Positions 2,683 to 60,044 of a DNA stretch of 64,000 bases are shown piece by piece. The stretch covers positions 12,896,001 to 12,960,000 of the forward strand of contig OZ024765.1 of assembly GCA_964016885.1 (NCBI GenBank), read 5' to 3'. The DNA comes from Eledone cirrhosa. Its lineage: Eukaryota. The notes under the pieces were generated by a model, which was not told where the DNA came from, ran no database searches, and saw only the letters and a list, made by a program, of their open reading frames with translations. A program made the position numbers and the translations under genes. Each line of letters opens with the position of its first letter. Within the stretch, counting starts at the first letter, position 1.

Positions 2683-3474
2683 CATAGAGACTCTTATCAT
2701 TTCTGTCTTCAGTTGAAAGACATTTAAATGTAATAAATTCTCAGTTGTGAAAATCTGCTGTCCCCTCTTCGCCACCCCACTCCCAGAATTCGTTTTCGCA
2801 GGGGTGGGGGTGGGGGGTGGATTGTGAACATGTCAGAGGTCAAATTAGTTGAAAAAAACACACACTAAAAAAAATATTTCTTAGCGATCCCCAGTGGACA
2901 CTTTTCTATAAATTTAATTGATTGAGAGGTGCTTATCTGTAACTCCAAGGGTCCCCTCTGGTCCCATGTCCATTTCAAGGGAAAATGGAGTCATTTGTGA
3001 GTGAGTTGGATGTCAGATCAGTTGAAAACAAACCTAAAACCTAGAAAAAAAAAAGAAAATCCCATCAAAGAAAATTCATTACTCCAAAGACCCTTTGGAG
3101 AACCCCCATTTCGGCCGCTTGTATTTGTGATCCTATTCTTTCAGTCATTACCCAAGATTAATGACCATAGTTAAGGGTTGGCACGAAAACTGAATTGAAG
3201 ACAATGTGGGAGTTTGTCAATTCAGATAAAATAAAAAAATGTTCATCTTACTCTTTTACATGCCATGTTGTCATACTTCTCCCCTCCCTTCCATGGAGGT
3301 AGTTCATAGCTATGCCAACCACTCCTCTCCATATGGCTGGCAGTTCTATTTTTAAAGAGCAGAAACTCTATCCAAGCCTTGTATAACAGCTGATGACAGT
3401 GATCTACTGTGTCTGATGTCTTTCTTTACATTGTCTGGGGGTGCATTTCTTGCATGTTTGTGTGTGTGTGTATA

Positions 3475-3812
3475 TCATCATCATCATCATCATCATCATA
3501 CGTCCACTTTTCCCTGCTTGCAAGGGTGGGACGGGAACTGATTCTGGCTTGATTTCTACAGCTGGATGCCCTTCCTAACACCAACCTCATTTACAGTGAG
3601 TGCTGGGTGCTTTTTTCCTGTGGCACCTCCACGACCACTTTACAGTGGAATGATAGGGACCCCAGTCCTATCATCTCATTTCTACAGCTGAGTAAACTAG
3701 AGCAATGTGAAATAAAGTGTCTTGCTCAAGGAAACAACACATCACCCGGTCTGAAAATTGAACTCACAACCTTTCGATTGCAAGGCCAATGCTCTAACCA
3801 CTAACCCATGTG
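3475..3812 (-). mobile_element. tRNA-derived SINE family A (V/CORE-like middle, RTE-derived 3' part)
   Basis: Reverse complement of the 16741 and 20093 copies, with A and B boxes and a (GAT)n tail. Confidence 0.9.
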
Positions 3813-3908
3813 ATATATATATATATATATATATGACTATCCAAGGAAAACTTGAACCGTTAAGGTAGATTCTCCTTGGTTATGTCAAAATTTATAAAAC
3901 ACACTTCG

Positions 3909-3970
3909 TATTTTATCTGATGAAAGCGTACAAAAATCTTTGGTACCCTTGAAATATATATAATAGAATG
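3909..3970 (+). ncRNA. Minimal type I hammerhead ribozyme
   Basis: Stem I TATTTTAT/ATAGAATG; CTGATGA; stem II AAGcGTAC/GTACcCTT; GAAA; palindromic stem III TATATA followed by TA. Confidence 0.75.
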
Positions 3971-4014
3971 AATATGGTTTTATAAATATAGTTTCCATTT
4001 ATTTAATATCATTG

Positions 4015-4047
<33 letters not shown>

Positions 4048-4049
<2 letters not shown>

Positions 4050-4240
4050 GAAAAAGTATGACCCCGACGGCAGAGCTCAAGCCGTTTCGACGGCTATTTC
4101 AGTCCAGAAATAGCCGTCGAAACGGCTTGAGCTCTGCTGTCGGGGTCATACTTTTTCCTATTTCCTACTCTACTACCCTAAGTATTGAGTACTCTGGTGC
4201 GTTATGGTCCATCTGGTTTCTTACAACAATTCCTTTGTTA
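4048..4240 (+). mobile_element. Fold-back element (53-bp arms, 4048-4159) plus conserved tail; Penelope-like terminal repeat family P1
   Basis: Inverted repeat around the loop AGTCCA, containing AGCCGTC-GAAAC. Tail TATTGAGTACTCTGGTGCG..TTGTTA then (TA)n. Other copies at 14120, 21134 and 57421. Confidence 0.6.
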
Positions 4241-5222: not shown

Positions 5223-6519
5223 CACGCGACTAACCCAGGTTCTGCTGCATGTCGGGCTGAGGAGGCCAAACTCTCCAAGTACCGGTTGCTCTCCGACAGG
5301 TTTGCGGTCCTACCCTTGGCAGTGGAGACTTCTGGTGTCCTTGGCCCTAGGGCTACCTCCCTACTCACCACCATAGGTGCTGAACTGGCTAGCCATAGCA
5401 GTGGAGACTTCTGGTGTCCTTGGCCCTAGGGCTACCTCCTTACTCACCACCATAGGTGCTGAGATGGCTAGCCATAGCAGTGGAGACTTCTGGTGTCCTT
5501 GGCCCTAGGGCTACCTCCCTATTCACCACCATAGATTCTGAGATGGCTAGCCATAGCAGTAGAGACTTCTGGTGTCCTTGGCCCTAGGGCTACCTCCCTA
5601 TTCACCACCATAGGTGCTGAACTGGCTAGCCATAGCAGTAGAGACTTCTGGTGTCCTTGGCCCTAGGGCTACCTCCCTATTCACCACCATAGGTGCTGAA
5701 CTGGCTAGCCATAGCAGTAGAGACTTCTGGTGTCCTTGGCCCTAGGGCTACCTCCCTACTCACCACCATAGGTGCTGAGATGGCTAGCCATAGCAGTAGA
5801 GACTTCTGGTGTCCTTGGCCCTAGGGCTACCTCCCTACTCACCACCATAGGTGCTGAGATGGCTAGCCATAGCAGTAGAGACTTCTGGTGTCCTTGGCCC
5901 TAGGGCTACCTCCCTACTCACCACCATAGGTGCTGAGATAGCTAGCCATAGCAGTAGAGACTTCTGGTGTCCTTGGTCCTAGGGCTACCTCCCTACTCAC
6001 CACCATAGGTGCTGAGATGGCTAGCCATAGCAGTGGAGACTTCTGGTGTCCTTGGCCCTAGGGCTACCTCCCTACTCACCACCATAGGTGCTGAGATGGC
6101 TAGCCATAGCAGTGGAGACTTCTGGTGTCCTTGGCCCTAGGGAACCTCCTTACTCACCACCATAGGTGCTGAGATGGCTAGCCATAGCAGTGGAGACTTC
6201 TGGTGTCCTTGGCCCTAGGGCTACCTCCTTACTCACCACCATAGGCGCTGAGCTGACCAGCCGCAAGTGTGAGCCTGGCGAGATGGAATGGCTCTTCCAG
6301 CGCATCTCCCTTCCCATCCTCCAGGGAAATGCCTTCTCCATTCTGTCCACCGGGGCCGTGGGGCGGCCAACACATGGGACTATACCTAACCCTTGTTCAC
6401 TATACAGAGAGACGGAGAAGGCGAGAGAGATGTGGGTGAGTTCGGCTTGTCCGTGTTCGGACACATTGCACCCGTCAAGAGTGTATTTTCATACTTGTGA
6501 CCACGGACATTGTATGTAA
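5223..6519 (+). mobile_element. 3' fragment of a CRE-clade non-LTR retrotransposon (restriction-like endonuclease region) with an internal tandem expansion
   Basis: Collapsing the array gives PGSAACRAEEAKLSKYRLLSDRFAVLPLAVETSGVLGPRATSLLTTIGAELTSRKCEPGEMEWLFQRISLPILQGNAFSIL. This matches the CRE C-terminal pattern AA..AE..K..KY...P.A.ET.G...FQR.S.....GNA. Confidence 0.8.
5319..6252. repeat. 79-bp minisatellite, about 12 copies, derived from CRE coding sequence
   Basis: The GTGGAGACTT/GTAGAGACTT motif recurs at 5322, 5401, 5480, 5559 and onward. Confidence 0.95.
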
Positions 6520-13718: not shown

Positions 13719-14119
13719 TATATATATATATATATATATGCAGGAGAGGAGGTTGCGTTGGTATGGACATGTGATGTGTTTGAAGGATGACAGCTGCATA
13801 AAAAGGTGCAGAGCACTAAAAGTTGATGGAAACCTTTTCGCTTCTGTGTCTTTTATATCGGTAATCTAATTTATTCAGTCCTCAATGTTGCCATTGACTG
13901 ACCAACTGTCAAAAATACAGATACAATATAGACACAAACACATATATATAGTCTATCAAAGTTCTTTCGTTGCACATCTGCAACATCGTCAGTGGTGCTA
14001 TTGTTTCCTCCCGCTGCATTGTATTTTCTACGCCATCTTTATTTAGTCTGTTTATATATTTATTTATTTGTTTATTTTATTTTATTTTATTTTATTTTAT
14101 TTTGACACACGATTTCATA

Positions 14120-14256
14120 TTTAGGGTAGTAGAGTGGGAAATAGGAAAAAGTATGACCCCGACTGCAGAGCTCAAGCCGTTTCGACGGCTATTTCTGGAC
14201 TGAAATAGCCGTCGAAACGGCTTGAGCTCTGCCGTCGGGGTCATACTTTTTCCTAT
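14120..14256 (-). mobile_element. Fold-back element family P1
   Basis: 58-bp arms at 14141-14256 around TGGACT, the reverse complement of the loop at 4101-4106. Confidence 0.65.
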
Positions 14257-17652: not shown

Positions 17653-17753
17653 CACTGAGGAGGTCATAGAATGTGTGACAAAAGAGCTTTGACAATATAT
17701 TAAAAAAAAACATCCGGTTATCGAAAAGAGTTCCAAGTTAAAAGAGTTCCAAG

Positions 17754-17824
17754 TATTTTATTATGCACATTTCAAAAACAAATATCATCATGCGATAACA
17801 TTTGCGTTTTCGTCAGATAAAATA
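17754..17824 (-). ncRNA. Type I hammerhead ribozyme (inverted duplicate of 20885-20955)
   Basis: Reverse complement reads TATTTTAT-CTGACGA-stem II-GAAA-TGTGCA-TA-ATAAAATA. Confidence 0.75.
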
Positions 17825-17966
17825 GGGAGACATGATATGAAGGTTAAAACACACTTGTGAATAGTGCAGTTTTAAATCAACATATATGTTGATTTAAAAC
17901 TGCACTATTCACAAGTGTGTTTTAACCTTCATATCATGTATCCCTATTTTATCTGATGAAAACGCA
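17803..17966. repeat. Near-perfect palindrome with 82-bp arms
   Basis: Centre CATATATG at 17881-17888. Confidence 0.95.
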
Positions 17967-18998
17967 GATATCTTTTAACCATCTTTTGATCTTATATATT
18001 ATATATATATACTACCAAAATTAAATTAAAGATGCCAACGTCTGAGAAGATCAGAATCATGCACCATACCACCTGTAGAATAGGCTCATATAGGACTGTT
18101 TCTGGCTAGATATCTACAGCTGGATACCCTTCCTAATGCCAACCACATTTACAGTGTGTGCTGGATCTTTATATATATATATACACACACACACATATAT
18201 ATACATATTTATACACACACACATATATATATATATACGTATACGTGTATATATATATCTATAGCCAGAAACAGTCCTATACGAGCAAGACATGGTCACC
18301 CGACCAAACTTGCCTCAAATGGCACAAACCCATCTAACCCATGCTAGCGTGGAAGATAGACGTTAAATGATGATGATGATATATATATATGTATATATGT
18401 ATGTATATATGTATATATGTATATATATATGTATATATGTGTGTATATATCTATATATATCTATATACACACACACATACATAATTTACATTATATTATA
18501 GTGTCAAGAGTTTTCATAGAATAGAACAAAAGAGCATTCTATGTTAAGTGCATAACTAAAATATATTTTAAATAAATTCTCAGCATAGTTGCTTAATAGC
18601 CAAGGATTCAAAGCCTACTCTCTCATAGGCCCTATATATATATATATATATATAGATATATATATATATCTATATATATATATCTCTATATATATATATA
18701 TATCGTTTCTGAATTTGTTTAGCAAGATTCTTTATCTGAAATCGTGTGTTGAAACTGATATTGTTAACAAAGGAGAGGCACAGAAACAAAGAAAGGAATC
18801 CCCAGTCACTGAAGAGGTCACAGAGTGTGTGACGAAAGAACTATGACTATATATAAACAACTATCTGGTTGTGGAACCAACCAACCAACCAGAAATTTAT
18901 AAATTTGTAAATTTATAAATTTATAAATATATAATAAATTGAAGTGAAAGCAACTGGTGCGTGTGTTTCTTATTGGCAACATGACCCTCCCAAAGTAT

Positions 18999-19147: not shown

Positions 19148-19192
<45 letters not shown>

Positions 19193-19240
19193 TATAGATA
19201 GGTAAATATACACGGGTGTGTATGATTGTGTATAGAAGAT

Positions 19241-19635
19241 TATATTAATAAGAGGAATTCCAACTTTGTCTGATTTACTCGTTTTATTTACAATCCTTTA
19301 AAATATATATAATGGTATTATAATGAAAAAGTATGATAGAATATTAAATTCTAAGTGTTAATTGAACAAGTACTTTCATGCTTTCGCAATCTTCAGGTTC
19401 ATGATATGTGGTGACAGTCGAGTTTGCAATTTTCAACTGTTGAAAATTGCAAACTCGACTGTCACCACATATCATGAACCTGAAGATTGCGAAAGCATGA
19501 AAGTACTTGTTCAATTAACACTTAGAATTTAATATTCTATCATACTTTTTCATTATAATACCATTATATATATTTTAAAGGATTGTAAATAAAACGAGTA
19601 AATCAGACAAAGTTGGAATTCCTCTTATTAATATA
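19241..19635. repeat. Perfect palindrome with 197-bp arms and a 1-nt spacer
   Basis: Centre TTCAAC-T-GTTGAA at 19438, flanked by (TA)n. Confidence 0.96.
19475..19513 (+). ncRNA. Minimal hammerhead ribozyme (mirror copy on the minus strand at 19363-19401)
   Basis: TGAAC-CTGAAGA-tTGC-GAAA-GCAt-GAAA-GTAC-TT-GTTCA: 5-bp stem I, GNRA-capped stem II, palindromic stem III AAGTACTT. Confidence 0.75.
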
Positions 19636-20417: not shown

Positions 20418-20683
20418 ATATATATGTGTGTGTGTGTGTATAAATATGTATATATGTGTGTATATATATATATATATGTGTGTGTGTATAAATATGTATA
20501 TATATGTGTGTGTATATATATATATAAAGATCCAGCACACACTGTAAATGTGGTTGGCATTAGGAAGGGTATCCAGCTGTAGATATCTAGCCAGAAACAG
20601 TCCTATATGAGCCTATTCTACAGGTGATATGGTGCATGATTCTGATCTTCTCAGACATGGCATCTTTAATTTAATTTTGGTAG

Positions 20684-20716
<33 letters not shown>

Positions 20717-20884
20717 AGATCAAAAGATGGTTAAAAGATATCTGCGTTTTCATCAGATAAAATAGGGATACATGATATGAAAGTTAAAACACACTTGTGA
20801 ATAGTGCAGTTTTAAATCAACATATATGTTGATTTAAAACTGCACTATTCACAAGTGTGTTTTAACCTTCATATCATGTCTCCC

Positions 20885-20955
20885 TATTTTATCTGACGAA
20901 AACGCAAATGTTATCGCATGATGATATTTGTTTTTGAAATGTGCATAATAAAATA
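20885..20955 (+). ncRNA. Type I hammerhead ribozyme overlapping the palindrome at 20743-20906
   Basis: Perfect 8-bp stem I TATTTTAT/ATAAAATA; CTGACGA; long stem II GCAAATGTTATC/GATGATATTTGT; GAAA; TGTGCA-TA. Confidence 0.8.
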
Positions 20956-21079
20956 CTTGGAACTCTTTTAACCATCTTTTGATCTTATATTATTTATACT
21001 CCAGTCCTACAAACTGTAGAGTGCTTCTTATCCGATATCTGCATTGCTTTATTGTACTACAATAAAACTCACCTCCTAC

Positions 21080-21133: not shown

Positions 21134-21336
21134 GGAAAATAGTCAAGACCCCGACGGCTGAGCTCCGGCTGTTTCGACAGCTAGATCTGAATAGTTTGGA
21201 TCTAGCTCTGTCAAAACAGCCGGAGCTCAGTTGTCGGGGTCCTGACTTTTTTCCTATTACCCACTCTACTACCCTAAGTATTGAGTACTCTGGTGCGTTA
21301 TGGTCCACCTGGTTTCTTACCACACTTTCCTTGTTA
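21134..21336 (+). mobile_element. Fold-back element family P1 (diverged subfamily)
   Basis: Imperfect inverted repeat at 21141-21248, plus the same TATTGAGTACTCTGGTGCG tail. Confidence 0.6.
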
Positions 21337-22936: not shown

Positions 22937-22975
<39 letters not shown>

Positions 22976-23059
22976 AAAGTTATATTTAAATTGTTGGGTT
23001 ACAACTAGTAAATATTTATAACTGATATAAAAGCACTCGACAAGTATTTGGAGTATATT

Positions 23060-23428
23060 TACAATATTAAATAAATGGAAACTATATTTATAAAACCATA
23101 TTTATTTCATTATATATATTTCAGGGATATCATATTAACAATATGCTATGCCTTCCTCAGACAAAATACAATATAAACAGTTTTATAGATAAATAGATTT
23201 GACATACCGTAACAACATCGACTTGTATTTGAAAAGTTGAATTGACTGCCAATTCAACTTTTCAAATACAAGTCGATGTTGTTACGGTATGTCAAATCTA
23301 TTTATCTATAAAACTGTTTATATTGTATTTTGTCTGAGGAAGGCATAGCATATTGTTAATATGATATCCCTGAAATATATATAATGAAATAAATATGGTT
23401 TTATAAATATAGTTTCCATTTATTTAAT

Positions 23429-23434
<6 letters not shown>
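23060..23434. repeat. Perfect palindrome with 185-bp arms and a 5-nt loop
   Basis: Centre AATTG-ACTGC-CAATT at 23247. Confidence 0.96.
23326..23391 (+). ncRNA. Type I hammerhead ribozyme (mirror copy on the minus strand at 23103-23168)
   Basis: TATTTTGT-CTGAGGA-AGGcATAgCATATT..AATATGaTATcCCT-GAAA-TATATA-TA-ATGAAATA. Same family as 3909 and 39214. Confidence 0.75.
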
Positions 23435-53371: not shown

Positions 53372-56300
53372 AAATCATAAGCCAGAGCCCCCCCCCCGCA
53401 TCACCACCATTATTATAAGCCAGAGCCCCCCCCCACCCCCACGCATCACCATTATTATTATTACGCGGACCAAATCATAAGCCAGAGGCCTATACTATCG
53501 CTTGCCCGGTTGCCTTCGATATATGATGGATGGATGGATGGACGGACGGACTGCGGAATCCTGGAGAGTGGAAGGGAGAGAAAAATCTGGACGCCCAGAG
53601 CGAAAATGCCAAAGTTAAAGTCAAATTCACCTCGTGGACGAGAATGCGAGCACTCCTCTTTGTTTCGTCCGCGGATGGCTAACATAACCCTATCTCCTCC
53701 CGCCCCCCACCACCCCCACCCTCCAAACGCAACCCAAAACTTCAGAGTTGGTACCATAAATGTAGGCACCCTAAAGGGTCGCGCTAACGAGGTTGTAGAA
53801 ATGCTTGAACGTAAGGAGGTCGATGTTTGTTGTATTCAAGAGACCAGGTGGAGGGGTGGGTCTGCTAAATTCATTGAGGGTAAAAAACGATGTTATAAGC
53901 TTTTCTGGGTGGGAAACGACGATGGGCTGGGTGGAGTAGGAATCATGGTAGCAGAAAAGTGGGCAGATAAGATAATAGACGTAAATAGAGTGAACGACAG
54001 AATAATTAAAATAAGACTTGTCCTCAATAGAACTACGGTGACAGTAATATCTGCGTACGCACCCCAATCCGGACTGCCCGGCACTATAAAAGACAGATTC
54101 TATGAGACACTGTTGCTAACTACCTCCCAAATATCTGACAGTGACTATATAATTATTGCAGGCGACCTAAATGGTCACGTTGGACAACATTGTGACGGCT
54201 ATGACGAAATCCATGGAGGCTATGGGTTTGGTACTAGAAATGAGGAAGGCTCCAGAATTCTGGAATACTGTGATGCAAATAACCTAACTATCTGTAACAC
54301 TAACTTCAAAAAACGTGACAATCACCTGATTACCTATAGATCCGGGGAACACACAAGCCAGGTAGATTATATCCTTACCAGAAGACGTGACAGAGTGTCT
54401 GTTGTAAACACTAAATCCCTCCCCCATGAAGAATGCACCTCCCAACATAGACTGATAATTAGCGACCTCATAGTCAGGACGAGACGCACCCGACAGCAGA
54501 AGAGGACTATCCTCAGGAGGAAAATATGGAAACTAAAGGACCCCACAGCCAGAAATAAATTTCAAAGCATATTACTTGATGCTTTCGACAGTAAGGAAGA
54601 GCATCTAGAATCGGACAATATAGAGGGACAGTGGAAATTTCTGAAAGCAAACCTGCTGTTGGCGACAGACGAAGTCTGTGGCTGGAGCAGGCCTGTAGGC
54701 AGGAGGAGAGTAACATGGTGGTGGAACAATAGGGTGGAGGGGTCAATTAAGGCCAAAAAGCAGGCTTGGAAAGTATGGCGGGATGGGGGAAGTAGAGTAG
54801 ACTATCAAGTGGCCAGGAGGGAAGCTAGGAGAGAAGTGTACTTAGCAAGAAGGGAAGCTGAGGAAAGAAAGTTCAAGCATGTTCTACAACGCGATGACCA
54901 AAAACGTGAGGTGTTCAGGATTGCCAGGCAATGCGTCAAGGAAAACCGTGATATTGTCGGGGAGAAGTGTGTACTTAACGATGATGGCATACTTGCCATC
55001 ACCGACACTGATAAGAAGGTAGCTTGGAAGTGTCACTATGAAAGGCTACTAAATGAGGAGAATAAATGGGAGAAAGACAGTCTCCCCCTTATCGACCCGA
55101 TAGAGGGACCAGCAGTGTTAGTCGAGGGGAGTATAATAAGTAAGGCAATCAAGGATATGAAGACTGGTAAGGCGGCTGGGCCTTCGGAAATAGTTGCTGA
55201 GATGCTGAAGGCATCTGGCACGGTGGGACACACCATGGTCACCCGCATAGTTAACCAAGTCGTACAGAATGGGGTTGTTCCGAAGGACTGGCATAGCAGC
55301 ATCATCGTTAACTGTTATAAGGGTAAAGGAGACGCCCTAGATAGGAGTAACTATAGAGGCATTAAATTAATCGACCAGGTCATGAAGGTCACGGAAAAAG
55401 TAATAGCGCAACTAATCAGAGAGAGAATTGATCTAGATGAAATGCAGTTCGGGTTTGTGTCAGGCAAAAGCACCACAGACGCTCTTTTCATAGTACGACA
55501 ACTACAGGAGAAGTACCTAGCTAAAGGTAAACCCCTCTACTTAGCTTTTGTCGACCTGGAGAAAGCCTTCGACAGAGTCCCCCGCTCCATTATCTGGTGG
55601 GCTCTTAGAAAACTAGGCGTTGACGAATGGCTTGTGAGGGCTATACAAGCCATGTATAAAGAAACAGTCAGCAAGGTTAGAATTAACAACGAATATAGTG
55701 AAGAGTTTAGCGTAAAAGTTGGCGTCCATCAGGGCTCTGTTCTCAGCCCCCTACTATTTATTATTGCCCTTCAGGCTATAACAGAGGAGTTCAAGACAGG
55801 CTGCCCATGGGAACTCCTATACGCAGACGACCTGACACTCATAGCGGAATCAATGGCCGAGCTAGAGAAGAAATTCCAAACATGGAAGCACGGCCTAGAG
55901 TCAAAAGGACTTAAAATTAACCTGGCTAAGACCAAAGTTCTAGTTTGTAGGAAAGAAAACAAGGCGGCGGTCCCTTCTGGGAAATGGTCGTGCTCGGTAT
56001 GTAGGAAAGGCGTAGGTAGAAACTCCATCTTATGTCCTAAATGCAAAGTATGGGTGCATAAAAGATGTAGTGGGATCACAGGTAAGCTAACTAAGAACAT
56101 AGACTTTACATGTGGCCGGTGTTCTGGTGCAATAAGTAGCAGCAAGTGCCCACAAAATACTAGCTCTTTCAATTGCGCAGAGGGTTCTATAGAAATAGTG
56201 GACAGCTTCCGTTACCTGGGCGATAAAATCAGCAGTGGGGGAGGGTGCTCTGAAAGTACTGTAGCTAGAGTCAGAACTGGTTGGAAAAAGTTCAGAGAGC

Positions 56301-57141
56301 TTATACCACTATTAGCTGCTAAAGGGTTCTCCCTAAAAATGAAAGGCAGGTTGTACGATGCCTGCATACGAACAGCAATGTTGCATGGTAGTGAGACCTG
56401 GGCATTGTGTGCAGAGGATATACGCAGACTAGAGAGGAACGAAGCTTGCATGCTCCGCTGGATGTGTAACAGTAATATACGTGAACGGCAAAGCATAAAC
56501 GAACTAAGGAAAAAATTAGAGATAAGAGGGATCAGATGTTGTTTACTCGAGAGAAGGCTGCGTTGGTATGGACACGTGATGCGCATGAAAGTCGATAGCT
56601 GTATTACAAAGTGCAGGGCAATAAAGATAGACGGTAGCCACGGAATAGGCAGACCTAGAAAAACATGGGATGAGCTGATAAACTCCGACCTCACACACTT
56701 ACACCTTTCCAAGACAATGTCACTGGACCGTGACCTTTGGCGGTACTCAGTAACAGAGAAGACCCGCCTTGCCAGTAGGCATCTCTAACAAAATACACCC
56801 CTCCCGCCGCCACCCCCACCCCATCCACACCACCCCGTTCTATGTAAAGTTATGTTGGTGCCGCGCCATCCAGGCCGAAACAAATGAGATCGTGTAGGTG
56901 TCACGACAAAAAAACACACAGTCCACGCTGTAATGTGGCCGTGTAGGCAACACGGTAAAAACCTCCCAGACCCACACTGTAAATGTGGTTGGTGTTAGGA
57001 AGGGCATCCAACTGTAGAAAACCTGCCAGACAGTCCTATGCGAGCAAGACAATCACTCTTGCCTCAAGTGGGACTACCCCCGTCCAAACCCATGCAAGCG
57101 TGGAACACGGACGTTAAACGTTGATGATGATGATGATGATG
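53372..57141 (+). mobile_element. Apparently intact RTE-clade LINE (RTE-A) inserted in (TA)n
   Basis: Single long ORF, about 350-bp 3'UTR, (GAT)n tail, TA tracts on both sides. Confidence 0.93.
53510..56788 (+). CDS. RTE retrotransposon protein: APE endonuclease, reverse transcriptase and PHD-type finger (first in-frame ATG at 53534)
   Basis: Endonuclease motifs GTINVGTL, IQETRW, SAYAPQ, AGDLNGH, QVDYIL, SQHRL. RT motifs YRGIKL, QFGF, FVDLEKAFD, GVHQGSVLSP, YADD (55820-55831), FRYLG. C-terminal RLRWYGHV and GRPRKTW. No stop codons. Confidence 0.96.
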   Translation: MPSIYDGWMDGRTDCGILESGRERKIWTPRAKMPKLKSNSPRGRECEHSSLFRPRMANITLSPPAPHHPHPPNATQNFRVGTINVGTLKGRANEVVEMLERKEVDVCCIQETRWRGGSAKFIEGKKRCYKLFWVGNDDGLGGVGIMVAEKWADKIIDVNRVNDRIIKIRLVLNRTTVTVISAYAPQSGLPGTIKDRFYETLLLTTSQISDSDYIIIAGDLNGHVGQHCDGYDEIHGGYGFGTRNEEGSRILEYCDANNLTICNTNFKKRDNHLITYRSGEHTSQVDYILTRRRDRVSVVNTKSLPHEECTSQHRLIISDLIVRTRRTRQQKRTILRRKIWKLKDPTARNKFQSILLDAFDSKEEHLESDNIEGQWKFLKANLLLATDEVCGWSRPVGRRRVTWWWNNRVEGSIKAKKQAWKVWRDGGSRVDYQVARREARREVYLARREAEERKFKHVLQRDDQKREVFRIARQCVKENRDIVGEKCVLNDDGILAITDTDKKVAWKCHYERLLNEENKWEKDSLPLIDPIEGPAVLVEGSIISKAIKDMKTGKAAGPSEIVAEMLKASGTVGHTMVTRIVNQVVQNGVVPKDWHSSIIVNCYKGKGDALDRSNYRGIKLIDQVMKVTEKVIAQLIRERIDLDEMQFGFVSGKSTTDALFIVRQLQEKYLAKGKPLYLAFVDLEKAFDRVPRSIIWWALRKLGVDEWLVRAIQAMYKETVSKVRINNEYSEEFSVKVGVHQGSVLSPLLFIIALQAITEEFKTGCPWELLYADDLTLIAESMAELEKKFQTWKHGLESKGLKINLAKTKVLVCRKENKAAVPSGKWSCSVCRKGVGRNSILCPKCKVWVHKRCSGITGKLTKNIDFTCGRCSGAISSSKCPQNTSSFNCAEGSIEIVDSFRYLGDKISSGGGCSESTVARVRTGWKKFRELIPLLAAKGFSLKMKGRLYDACIRTAMLHGSETWALCAEDIRRLERNEACMLRWMCNSNIRERQSINELRKKLEIRGIRCCLLERRLRWYGHVMRMKVDSCITKCRAIKIDGSHGIGRPRKTWDELINSDLTHLHLSKTMSLDRDLWRYSVTEKTRLASRHL

Positions 57142-58602: not shown

Positions 58603-59974
58603 AGACCCGACTGGCTTTGTATACAAACCTACAATCAGTAGGCACCTCTTAACCCAATGTACACACCCTACCCCGTCTCCCTTTTCCGTTCCGTCCACTG
58701 TGTTGATGACACAACAGTCCATACTGTAAAGTGGTTGTGTAGGAGACACAGTAAAAAGGCTCCCAGTCCATACTGTAAAGTGGTCGTGTAGGAGATACAG
58801 TAAAAAGGCTCCCAGTCCACACTGTAAGGTGGTCGTGTAGGAGACATGGTAAAAAGGCTCCCAGTCCACACTGTAAGGTGGTTGTGTAGGAGACACAGTA
58901 AAAAGGCTCCCAGTCCACACTGTAAGGTGGTCGTGTAGGAGACACAGTAAAAAGGCTCCCAGTCCACACTGTAAAGTGGTTGTGTAGGAGACACAGTAAA
59001 AAGGCTCCCAGTCCACACTGTAAGGTGGTCGTGTAGGAGACACGGTAAAAAGGCTCCCAGTCCACACTGTAAGGTGGTCGTGTAGGAGACACAGTAAAAA
59101 GGCTCCCAGTCCACACTGTAAGGTGGTCGTGTAGGAGACACAGTAAAAAGGCTCCCAGTCCACACTGTAAGGTGGTCGTGTAGGAGACACAGTAAAAAGG
59201 CTCCCAGTCCACACTGTACGGTGGTCGTGTAGGAGACACAGTAAAAAGGCTCCCAGTCCACACTGTAAGGTGGTCGTGTAGGAGACACAGTAAAAAGGCT
59301 CCCAGTCCACACTGTAAGGTGGTCGTGTAGGAGACACAGTAAAAAGGCTCCCAGTCCACACTGTAAAGTGGTCATGTAGGAGACACAGTAAAAAGGCTCC
59401 CAGTCCACACTGTAAAGTGGTCGTGTAGGAGACACAGTAAAAAGGCTCCCAGTCCACACTGTAAGGTGGTCGTGTAGGAGACACAGTAAAAAGGCTCCCA
59501 GTCCACACTGTAAAGTGGTCGTGTAGGAGACACAGTAAAAAGGCTCCCAGTCCACACTGTAAGGTGGTCGTGTAGGAGACACAGTAAAAAGGCTCCCAGT
59601 CCACACTGTAAAGTGGTTGTGTAGGAGACACAGTAAAAAGGCTCCCAGTCCACACTGTAAAGTGGTCATGTAGGAGACACAGTAAAAAGGCTCCCAGTCC
59701 ACACTGTAAAGTGGTCGTGTAGGAGACACAGTAAAAAGGCTCCCAGTTCACACTGTAAGGTGGTCGTGTAGGAGACACAGTAAAAAGGCTCCCAGTCCGC
59801 ACTGTAAAGTGGTTGGTGTTAGGAAGGGCATCCAACTGTAAAACAACCTGCCAGAGACACTTCTGTACGAGCGAAATTTGGTCTCCCAACCTTTCCTGCA
59901 TCAAATGGAACAAAACCGTCTAACCCATGTTAGCGTGGAAGATGGACATTAAACGACGATGATGATGATGATGA
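58600..59974 (+). mobile_element. RTE-A-lineage 3' end with a 49-bp unit expanded to about 22 copies
   Basis: Unit CAGTCCACACTGTAAGGTGGTCGTGTAGGAGACACAGTAAAAAGGCTCC over 58715-59812. Ends in a (GAT)n tail. Confidence 0.9.
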
Positions 59975-60044
59975 TATATATATATATATCACACGCACAC
60001 ACATATATATACATACATTCATAGATATATATATATATAATATC

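What the first reader, a model, noticed from the sequence alone, without database searches (positions are those of the whole stretch)
23060..23434. Second ambisense hammerhead palindrome, with covarying family members at 3909 and 39214
Seen: 185-bp perfect arms. The ribozyme and its downstream tail (ATATGGTTTTATAAATATAGTTTCCATTT) are shared with non-palindromic copies at 3909 and 39214. Stem II sequences differ but still pair (GTAC/GTAC, GCACCA/TGGTGT, CATATT/AATATG). Inference: RNA structure is under selection, and palindromes form at individual insertions, as with the inverted terminal-repeat fragments known from PLE integration.
Basis: partly seen in the sequence, partly recalled or inferred. 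Interest (0 to 1): 0.7.

Follow-up and report, generated by a model that had tools for sequence, protein, structure and literature searches.

The report
Back-to-back stub of Penelope retrotransposon
This mirror-image ribozyme pair is a short back-to-back remnant of a young, abundant Penelope-like jumping gene, likely made when both ends of one DNA cut copied the same RNA from two fixed start points to what is probably the RNA's capped first base, so the mirror is likely a by-product rather than a working two-way ribozyme.

Summary
The palindrome is real (185-bp perfect arms, hammerhead on both strands), but the insertion is larger and lopsided: 22973-23434, between two (TA)n runs, with an 87-nt tail on the left arm only. 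Both arms are letter-for-letter pieces of the terminal repeat of a 3.8-kb Hydra-clade Penelope-like element with an intact 737-aa ORF elsewhere in the genome (3,193 exact ribozyme hits). In 44 of 44 classifiable two-armed insertions, one arm ends at the short site and one at the long site; either may reach further, so both copy RNA. 108 of 395 arms start at one base, an initiator-like A (window 23245), sometimes behind a foreign G, which points to run-off at a capped RNA end. Identical junctions occur in both polarities, so palindromes form anew each time. Stem II covaries across subfamilies, though one cited pairing is out of register. Inverted copies, one-sided tails and two-strand hammerheads are published for this clade. 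The scan already noted the short/long pairing and twin hairpins elsewhere in this genome. My searches did not find the start-site wall reported. No RNA data.

The parts
22941..22972 (.). Left (TA)n target flank
   Evidence: sequence
22973..23244 (-). Long (L) arm: element positions 3535-3806, ending at the long site TTTCCA|TATA
   Evidence: 272 of 272 identical to the 3' terminal repeat of the full-length copy L033
22973..23059 (-). 87-nt tail, present on this arm only
23035..23054 (-). Hairpin 1 (ACTC-loop-GAGT) just downstream of the short end; a second copy (GCTC-loop-GAGC) follows the long end in full-length elements and is not in this insertion
   Evidence: predicted fold only
23103..23168 (-). 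Type I hammerhead motif, mirror copy
23245..23249 (+). Turn point; A23245 is the element base at which 108 of 395 arms start (native context TTCACT, inferred transcription start)
23245..23434 (+). Short (S) arm: element positions 3530-3719, ending at the short site ATTGTA|TATA
   Evidence: 190 of 190 identical to L033
23326..23391 (+). Type I hammerhead motif: core CTGAGGA 23334-23340, stem II 23341-23371, GAA, self-complementary stem III 23375-23382, predicted cut after A23383
23435..23460 (.). Right (TA)n target flank
3836..4014 (+). One-armed short-end copy of an older subfamily; begins at ACTATCC directly after (TA)n and a G
   Evidence: another copy of a similar subfamily (L258) also begins at ACTATCC
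39160..39320 (+). One-armed short-end copy of another older subfamily (approximate 5' limit)

Best explanation
The palindrome is a 5'-truncated head-to-head insertion of a young Hydra-clade Penelope-like retrotransposon in a (TA)n run, likely made by double priming: both ends of one cut would prime reverse transcription on element RNA, one at the short site and one 87 nt further 3'. Shown: the element's identity, the target, the two fixed ends, their strict pairing and the common 5' boundary at A23245. Inferred: both cDNAs run to the 5' end of a capped, uncut transcript started in the terminal repeat, and their ends are joined with a few bases of microhomology or templated fill; this yields the mirror. 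Inferred, weaker: one RNA serves both reactions, the trailing enzyme displacing or stalling at the leading one. The antisense ribozyme needs no function of its own; the conserved structure reflects selection on source elements.
For: Intact ORF with Hydra motifs between terminal repeats in L033; top fold match telomerase RT, E 5.5e-10. Of 60 insertions taken in order along contig C1, 44 are short+long, 0 short+short or long+long, 3 unclassifiable, 13 show no strand switch. Also short+long: 14 of 14 measurable pairs of other subfamilies from 17 fetched, 20 of 20 chosen palindromes, 13 of 13 distinct loci of an unrelated family among 30. The short arm reaches further 5' in 21, the long arm in 9, 14 tie, so neither arm is a copy of the other. 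395 arms include A3530, 287 the base before, 251 five bases further. A G precedes that A at 11 of 63 places joined directly to (TA)n (by eye); an extra G marks capped L1 ends (PMC11702581, passage). 6 of 44 long arms stop at 3702-3744, beside the short site. The two arms differ by 0-3 bases in 35 of 46 pairs, against medians of 6 or more between insertions. A PLE protein cuts and extends both strands from two start sites in vitro (PMC11167929).
Against: The transcription start and cap are inferred from DNA only. The flanking microsatellites often contain G, so the G count has an unmeasured background, and 2 of the 11 places are local duplicates. One RNA versus two from one locus cannot be told apart; L256 has arms with stem II of two subfamilies. 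L099 has two long ends facing outward 4.7 kb apart with no element sequence between; I treated them as separate insertions. In PMC11167929 the start sites did not differ between strands and pairing was not examined. About 10 of 50 listed palindromes could end at the ribozyme cut, so cut RNA may sometimes be the template. 0 of 7 partial tandems end at the inferred start, which a capped linear template alone does not explain.
Confidence: 0.8

Rival explanations
1. Fold-back or self-priming: one cDNA or an antisense RNA folds back at the junction and the second arm is copied from the first (the self-priming model of PMC3846280).
For: 14 of 44 pairs turn at nearly the same position in both arms; arms share private variants (L273, L276, L283, L284); short templated inserts at junctions.
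Against: A copied arm cannot reach further than its template. The short arm reaches further in 21 pairs and the long arm in 9, and only the long arm has the tail. One-armed copies share the same 5' boundary.
Confidence: 0.07
2. The palindrome is a self-propagating unit (MITE-like or ambisense-ribozyme element) copied as a whole and kept for two-way ribozyme function.
For: Some junctions recur: the window's junction at 5 of 50 listed loci, another at 13 loci fetched. Four loci share one junction.
Against: Recurrent junctions come in both polarities: 3 versus 3 for the window's type and 6 versus 7 for the other. The four shared-junction loci also share flanks, so they are segmental copies. Turn points range over the whole element.
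Confidence: 0.04
3. The 5' boundary at A23245 is a reverse-transcription stall or microhomology hot spot in front of the pyrimidine tract, not a transcription start; double priming otherwise holds.
For: A long T/C-rich tract lies just upstream, and a second, loose cluster of ends falls inside it at 3411-3496. 251 arms read through the site.
Against: The boundary is one base wide (108 versus 36 over the next five), sits at a CA in an initiator-like context, recurs at a CA in the unrelated family at 19241, and is sometimes preceded by a foreign G.
Confidence: 0.2
4. Assembly or library fold-back artefact.
For: Perfect palindromes in AT-rich repeats are a typical artefact (own knowledge).
Against: Fixed unequal ends, (TA)n on both sides, varied junctions, older subfamilies with diverged arms.
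Confidence: 0.01

Closest known systems
Hydra clade of C-terminal endonuclease-positive PLEs, e.g. Hydra-1_Obim and Penelope-13_HM (Craig et al. 2021, PMC8557442; section 11, passages and supplement part 2 read)
   Same: RW(R/K), DKT, CxCx5C, CxxC and CxH motifs; (TA)n target; canonical hammerhead. Penelope-13_HM is listed with a 5'-truncated inverted copy and a hammerhead on both strands.
   Different: Unit 3.8 kb (theirs generally under 3 kb); tail 87 nt (30-40 described for PLEs); a different hammerhead sequence from Hydra-1_Obim; thousands of near-identical copies. No direct protein comparison with the published families was made.
Inverted pLTR with optional tail and junction palindromes in Adineta vaga Penelope elements (Arkhipova et al. 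2013, PMC3846280; passages read)
   Same: Head-to-head arrangement, tail at one end, Inr-like TCACT noted in the pLTR.
   Different: They propose self-priming on an antisense template; arm lengths here argue for two primings on sense RNA.
Poseidon_Ac in vitro mechanism (Frangieh et al. 2024, PMC11167929; parts 1-2 of 4 read)
   Same: Two internal start sites that define the tail; both strands cut and extended; uncut RNA used.
   Different: Other clade; start sites inside the ORF; pairing of the two sites in one insertion and the inverted product not addressed in what I read.
LINE-1 twin priming and extra 5' G (PMC11702581; passages read)
   Same: Both ends of the break prime; cDNA ends are joined; extra G at capped ends.
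   Different: L1 segments barely overlap and the second site varies; here both sites are fixed and the arms overlap by up to kilobases.
Metazoan PLE hammerheads with palindromic helix III (Cervera and de la Pena 2014, PMC4209133; passages read)
   Same: Type I motif in the terminal repeat with a small self-complementary helix III, thought to act as a dimer.
   Different: Longer stem II with a C-C mismatch after three pairs; activity not tested here.

Membership tests
Penelope-like element (EN+) | Single ORF with telomerase-like RT | tested here: met
   737-aa ORF with YRDD in L033; model pLDDT 90, top PDB match TERT. Pfam on the ORF alone found nothing relevant.
Penelope-like element (EN+) | C-terminal GIY-YIG endonuclease | tested here: inconclusive
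   Invariant Y617, Y630, G632, R641 in 70 relatives; GIY-YIG hit in only 4 of 70 members, best E 0.0011, none for this ORF.
Penelope-like element (EN+) | pLTRs, partial tandems, inverted 5'-truncated copy, tail at one end | tested here: met
Hydra clade | RWK-type and DKT motifs | tested here: met
   RWR here, RWK or RWR in relatives; DKT
Hydra clade | CxCx5C linker; CxxC and CxH around conserved E and N | tested here: met
   CNCRDRSKC; CDLC, EE, N, CRH
Hydra clade | (TA)n insertion and canonical hammerhead | tested here: met
   outer ends
Hydra clade | Phylogenetic placement with named Hydra families | not tested
Type I hammerhead ribozyme | CUGANGA and GAAA core, UH site, three stems | tested here: met
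   with the core left free, 8 of 100 listed hits have a core change while N7 takes all four bases (by eye)
Type I hammerhead ribozyme | Self-cleavage | not testable with these tools
   The monomer does not fold into the motif as its lowest-energy structure (z 0.28); dimer activity needs an assay.
Non-LTR retrozyme | Non-coding tandem monomers each with a hammerhead | tested here: not met
   The arms are pieces of a coding element, not a tandem array.

The most novel reading that the evidence does not exclude
Hydra PLEs use two templates and one rule. Each cut is always primed once at each of two hairpin-marked sites. Capped linear transcripts give short palindromes that map the promoter to the base. 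Ribozyme-cut, circularised unit-length RNA gives the long copies and partial tandems: 0 of 7 end at the start site, and the second hairpin exists only where the repeat runs on into the ORF. This would explain the head-to-head shape, the one-sided tail and the purpose of the hammerhead together.
Probability: 0.3. Interest if true: 0.72.

Novelty: new member of a known kind. Interest (0 to 1): 0.42.

Why it matters
How Penelope-like elements, the closest retroelement relatives of telomerase, make head-to-head copies with a tail on one side is still open (PMC8557442, PMC11167929). This family offers thousands of young insertions, an intact ORF and base-exact predictions for both priming sites and the RNA start, so double priming can be tested directly. 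The palindrome itself is an ordinary product of that process.

Tried and rejected
Rfam scan: the 150 listed of 286 matches were microRNA families below their gathering scores, no hammerhead among them. Pfam and PDB sequence searches with the ORF: nothing relevant. RNA runs: no RNA holder listed; this says nothing on expression. Contigs of four coded runs on L033:3290-3900 show TA loose ends at the short site and a depth drop after the long site, but no joint at the turn point; they may be the assembly's own sample, so I do not count them as independent. Run-off at the ribozyme cut: 112 palindromes turn near it among about 37,000 motif hits, without a sharp boundary. Cofolding two ribozyme copies gave intermolecular stem II pairing, not the dimeric hammerhead; uninformative. 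One search scored three loci as short+short; one search showed these were anchor mismatches and all are short+long; the variant columns were out of register and were not used. Paper searches without useful hits: 0 papers; only PMC3846280. The preprint 10.64898/2026.07.22.740005 was read in part 1 of 5 only; its supplements are closed. Earlier-finding searches by words and by sequence returned nothing.

Full report
Observation. The arms 23060-23244 and 23250-23434 are perfectly complementary over 185 bp around ACTGC. Each carries a type I hammerhead layout: stem I of 8 pairs, CTGAGGA, stem II, GAA, a self-complementary stem III, and A at the cut site. The copies at 3917 and 39223 have the same layout and downstream motif. 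The insertion is larger than reported: the left arm continues 87 nt to 22973, and both ends meet (TA)n.

Identity. The right arm has 1,168 candidates in the 3.0-Gb genome; of 40 scored, giving 53 matches, 43 matches are 100% over the full length. A 24-mer of the ribozyme occurs 3,193 times. One locus, L033, holds a 3,808-nt unit with a 737-aa ORF between terminal repeats plus an inverted fragment. Both window arms match its 3' repeat without a mismatch. The ORF has RWR, DKT, YRDD, CxCx5C, CxxC and CxH, the marks given for the Hydra clade (PMC8557442). Its model best matches telomerase RT; the endonuclease assignment rests on conserved residues and weak hits in 4 of 70 relatives. The best named relative is from Argonauta (38%), so the host is probably a cephalopod (inference). 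The Hydra supplement lists an octopus family, and a family with an inverted copy and a hammerhead on both strands: two-strand hammerheads are already on record.

Covariation. In 30 stem II variants, pairs 19-47 (AU 13, GC 13, GU 4), 22-44 and 23-43 change on both sides; 39 cells against 14 in shuffles, 0 of 500. The rows are related, so this reflects a few events and is no significance test. With the core left free, 37,209 hits are found; 8 of the 100 listed have a core change (7 different changes), while N7 takes all four bases (counted by eye). Selection thus acted on source elements.

Fixed, paired ends. I fetched 60 insertions in order along contig C1 from the first 100 hits, leaving out the last hit. 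44 have two outward-facing arms, always one ending at the short site (3719) and one at the long site (3806); 3 have an unclassifiable end; 13 show no strand switch. One of the 44 is an older pair lying beside the targeted hit. L099 has two long ends 4.7 kb apart without element sequence between, counted as separate. The rule holds for 14 of 14 measurable pairs of other subfamilies among 17 fetched, 20 of 20 chosen palindromes, and 13 of 13 distinct loci of the unrelated family at 19241. The short arm reaches further 5' in 21 pairs, the long arm in 9, and 14 tie. Neither arm can then be a fold-back copy of the other, which argues against the self-priming model (PMC3846280) and fits a protein that cuts and extends both strands from two start sites (PMC11167929). 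Six long arms stop at 3702-3744, next to the short site, as if meeting the other reaction on one RNA. Arms differ by 0-3 bases in 35 of 46 pairs; most of the other 11 have an arm cut short inside the compared stretch, but L256 carries two subfamily variants. One RNA or two from one locus remains open.

Turn point. 82 palindromes of this variant turn within about 15 nt of the window's junction. Counts of nested patterns give 395 arms from A3530, 287 from C3529 and 251 from T3524: 108 arms begin at that A, against 36 lost over the next five bases. The native context is TTCACT, the initiator-like word also noted in PMC3846280. Where that A is joined straight to (TA)n, a G precedes it at 11 of 63 places (9 after merging local duplicates) and the native C at 7 (by eye); the copy at 3836 shows the same G. 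An extra G marks capped L1 5' ends, but G also interrupts these microsatellites, so this is suggestive only. The family at 19241 has a similar boundary at a CA. I infer run-off at a capped 5' end. The window's own junction recurs in both polarities (3 and 3), as does a commoner one (6 and 7), so recurrence comes from the mechanism and not from copying a palindromic unit.

Ribozyme role. Arms run through the cut site intact. 112 palindromes of all subfamilies turn near it; about 10 of 50 listed could end at the cut and most run further upstream (by eye). Uncut RNA is therefore the usual template for short copies. Earlier notes of this scan pointed me to a second hairpin; I had seen the first in the tail and confirmed the second just past the long end, with ACTC/GAGT changed to GCTC/GAGC. 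It exists only where the repeat runs into the ORF. All 7 partial tandems examined extend 240-790 nt upstream of the inferred start. Long copies thus need a read-through or circular template, and the ribozyme may make the latter (inference, untested).

Novelty. Clade, inverted structure, one-sided tail and two start sites are published. Double priming with paired ends and twin hairpins was noted repeatedly by this scan on other DNA of this genome; those notes are not independent evidence. I found the single-base 5' boundary with a possible cap G neither in paper searches nor in the summaries of earlier findings shown; most subscription papers are not searched. Verdict: new member of a known kind, with useful mechanistic evidence; interest 0.42.

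Noticed in passing
window 19190-19635: Palindrome of an unrelated hammerhead family with the same design: tail of about 45 nt on one arm, 13 of 13 two-armed loci short+long, 5' boundary at CAGTTG.
   Followed up: yes
window 4048-4240, 14085-14256, 21138-21330: A third family of short palindromes with a one-sided tail and no hammerhead core seen in the arms; two copies share the loop AGTCCA, the third has diverged arms.
   Followed up: partly
window 38960-39136: A fourth lopsided palindrome (48-bp arms, tail of about 75 nt); its tail and that of the third family carry the same TACTC-loop-GAGT motif as the main family.
   Followed up: partly
window 17737-18281 and 20421-20972: Inverted duplicate pair (93%), each holding an 82-bp palindrome with a related hammerhead, on either side of the 19241 palindrome.
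   Followed up: no
window 17268, 23753 (+), 38797 (-): Further hammerhead motifs with self-complementary stem III from other families; two weaker hits at 30732 and 39669 may be chance.
   Followed up: no
L256 (G000:C1:17020900-17022600): Palindrome whose two arms carry stem II of two different subfamilies yet share a rare downstream variant: two RNAs, template switch or later conversion.
   Followed up: partly
L032 2769-7024; L031 2916-6243: Kilobase-long overlapping inverted arms that include ORF sequence; such copies could give double-stranded RNA (inference).
   Followed up: no
window 55244-57036: Matches LINE-like RT fragments flanking L033 at 76-93%; probably another retroelement.
   Followed up: no
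window 5236-6242, 40307-41501, 58709-59989: Tandem arrays with units of about 79, 112 and 49 bases.
   Followed up: no
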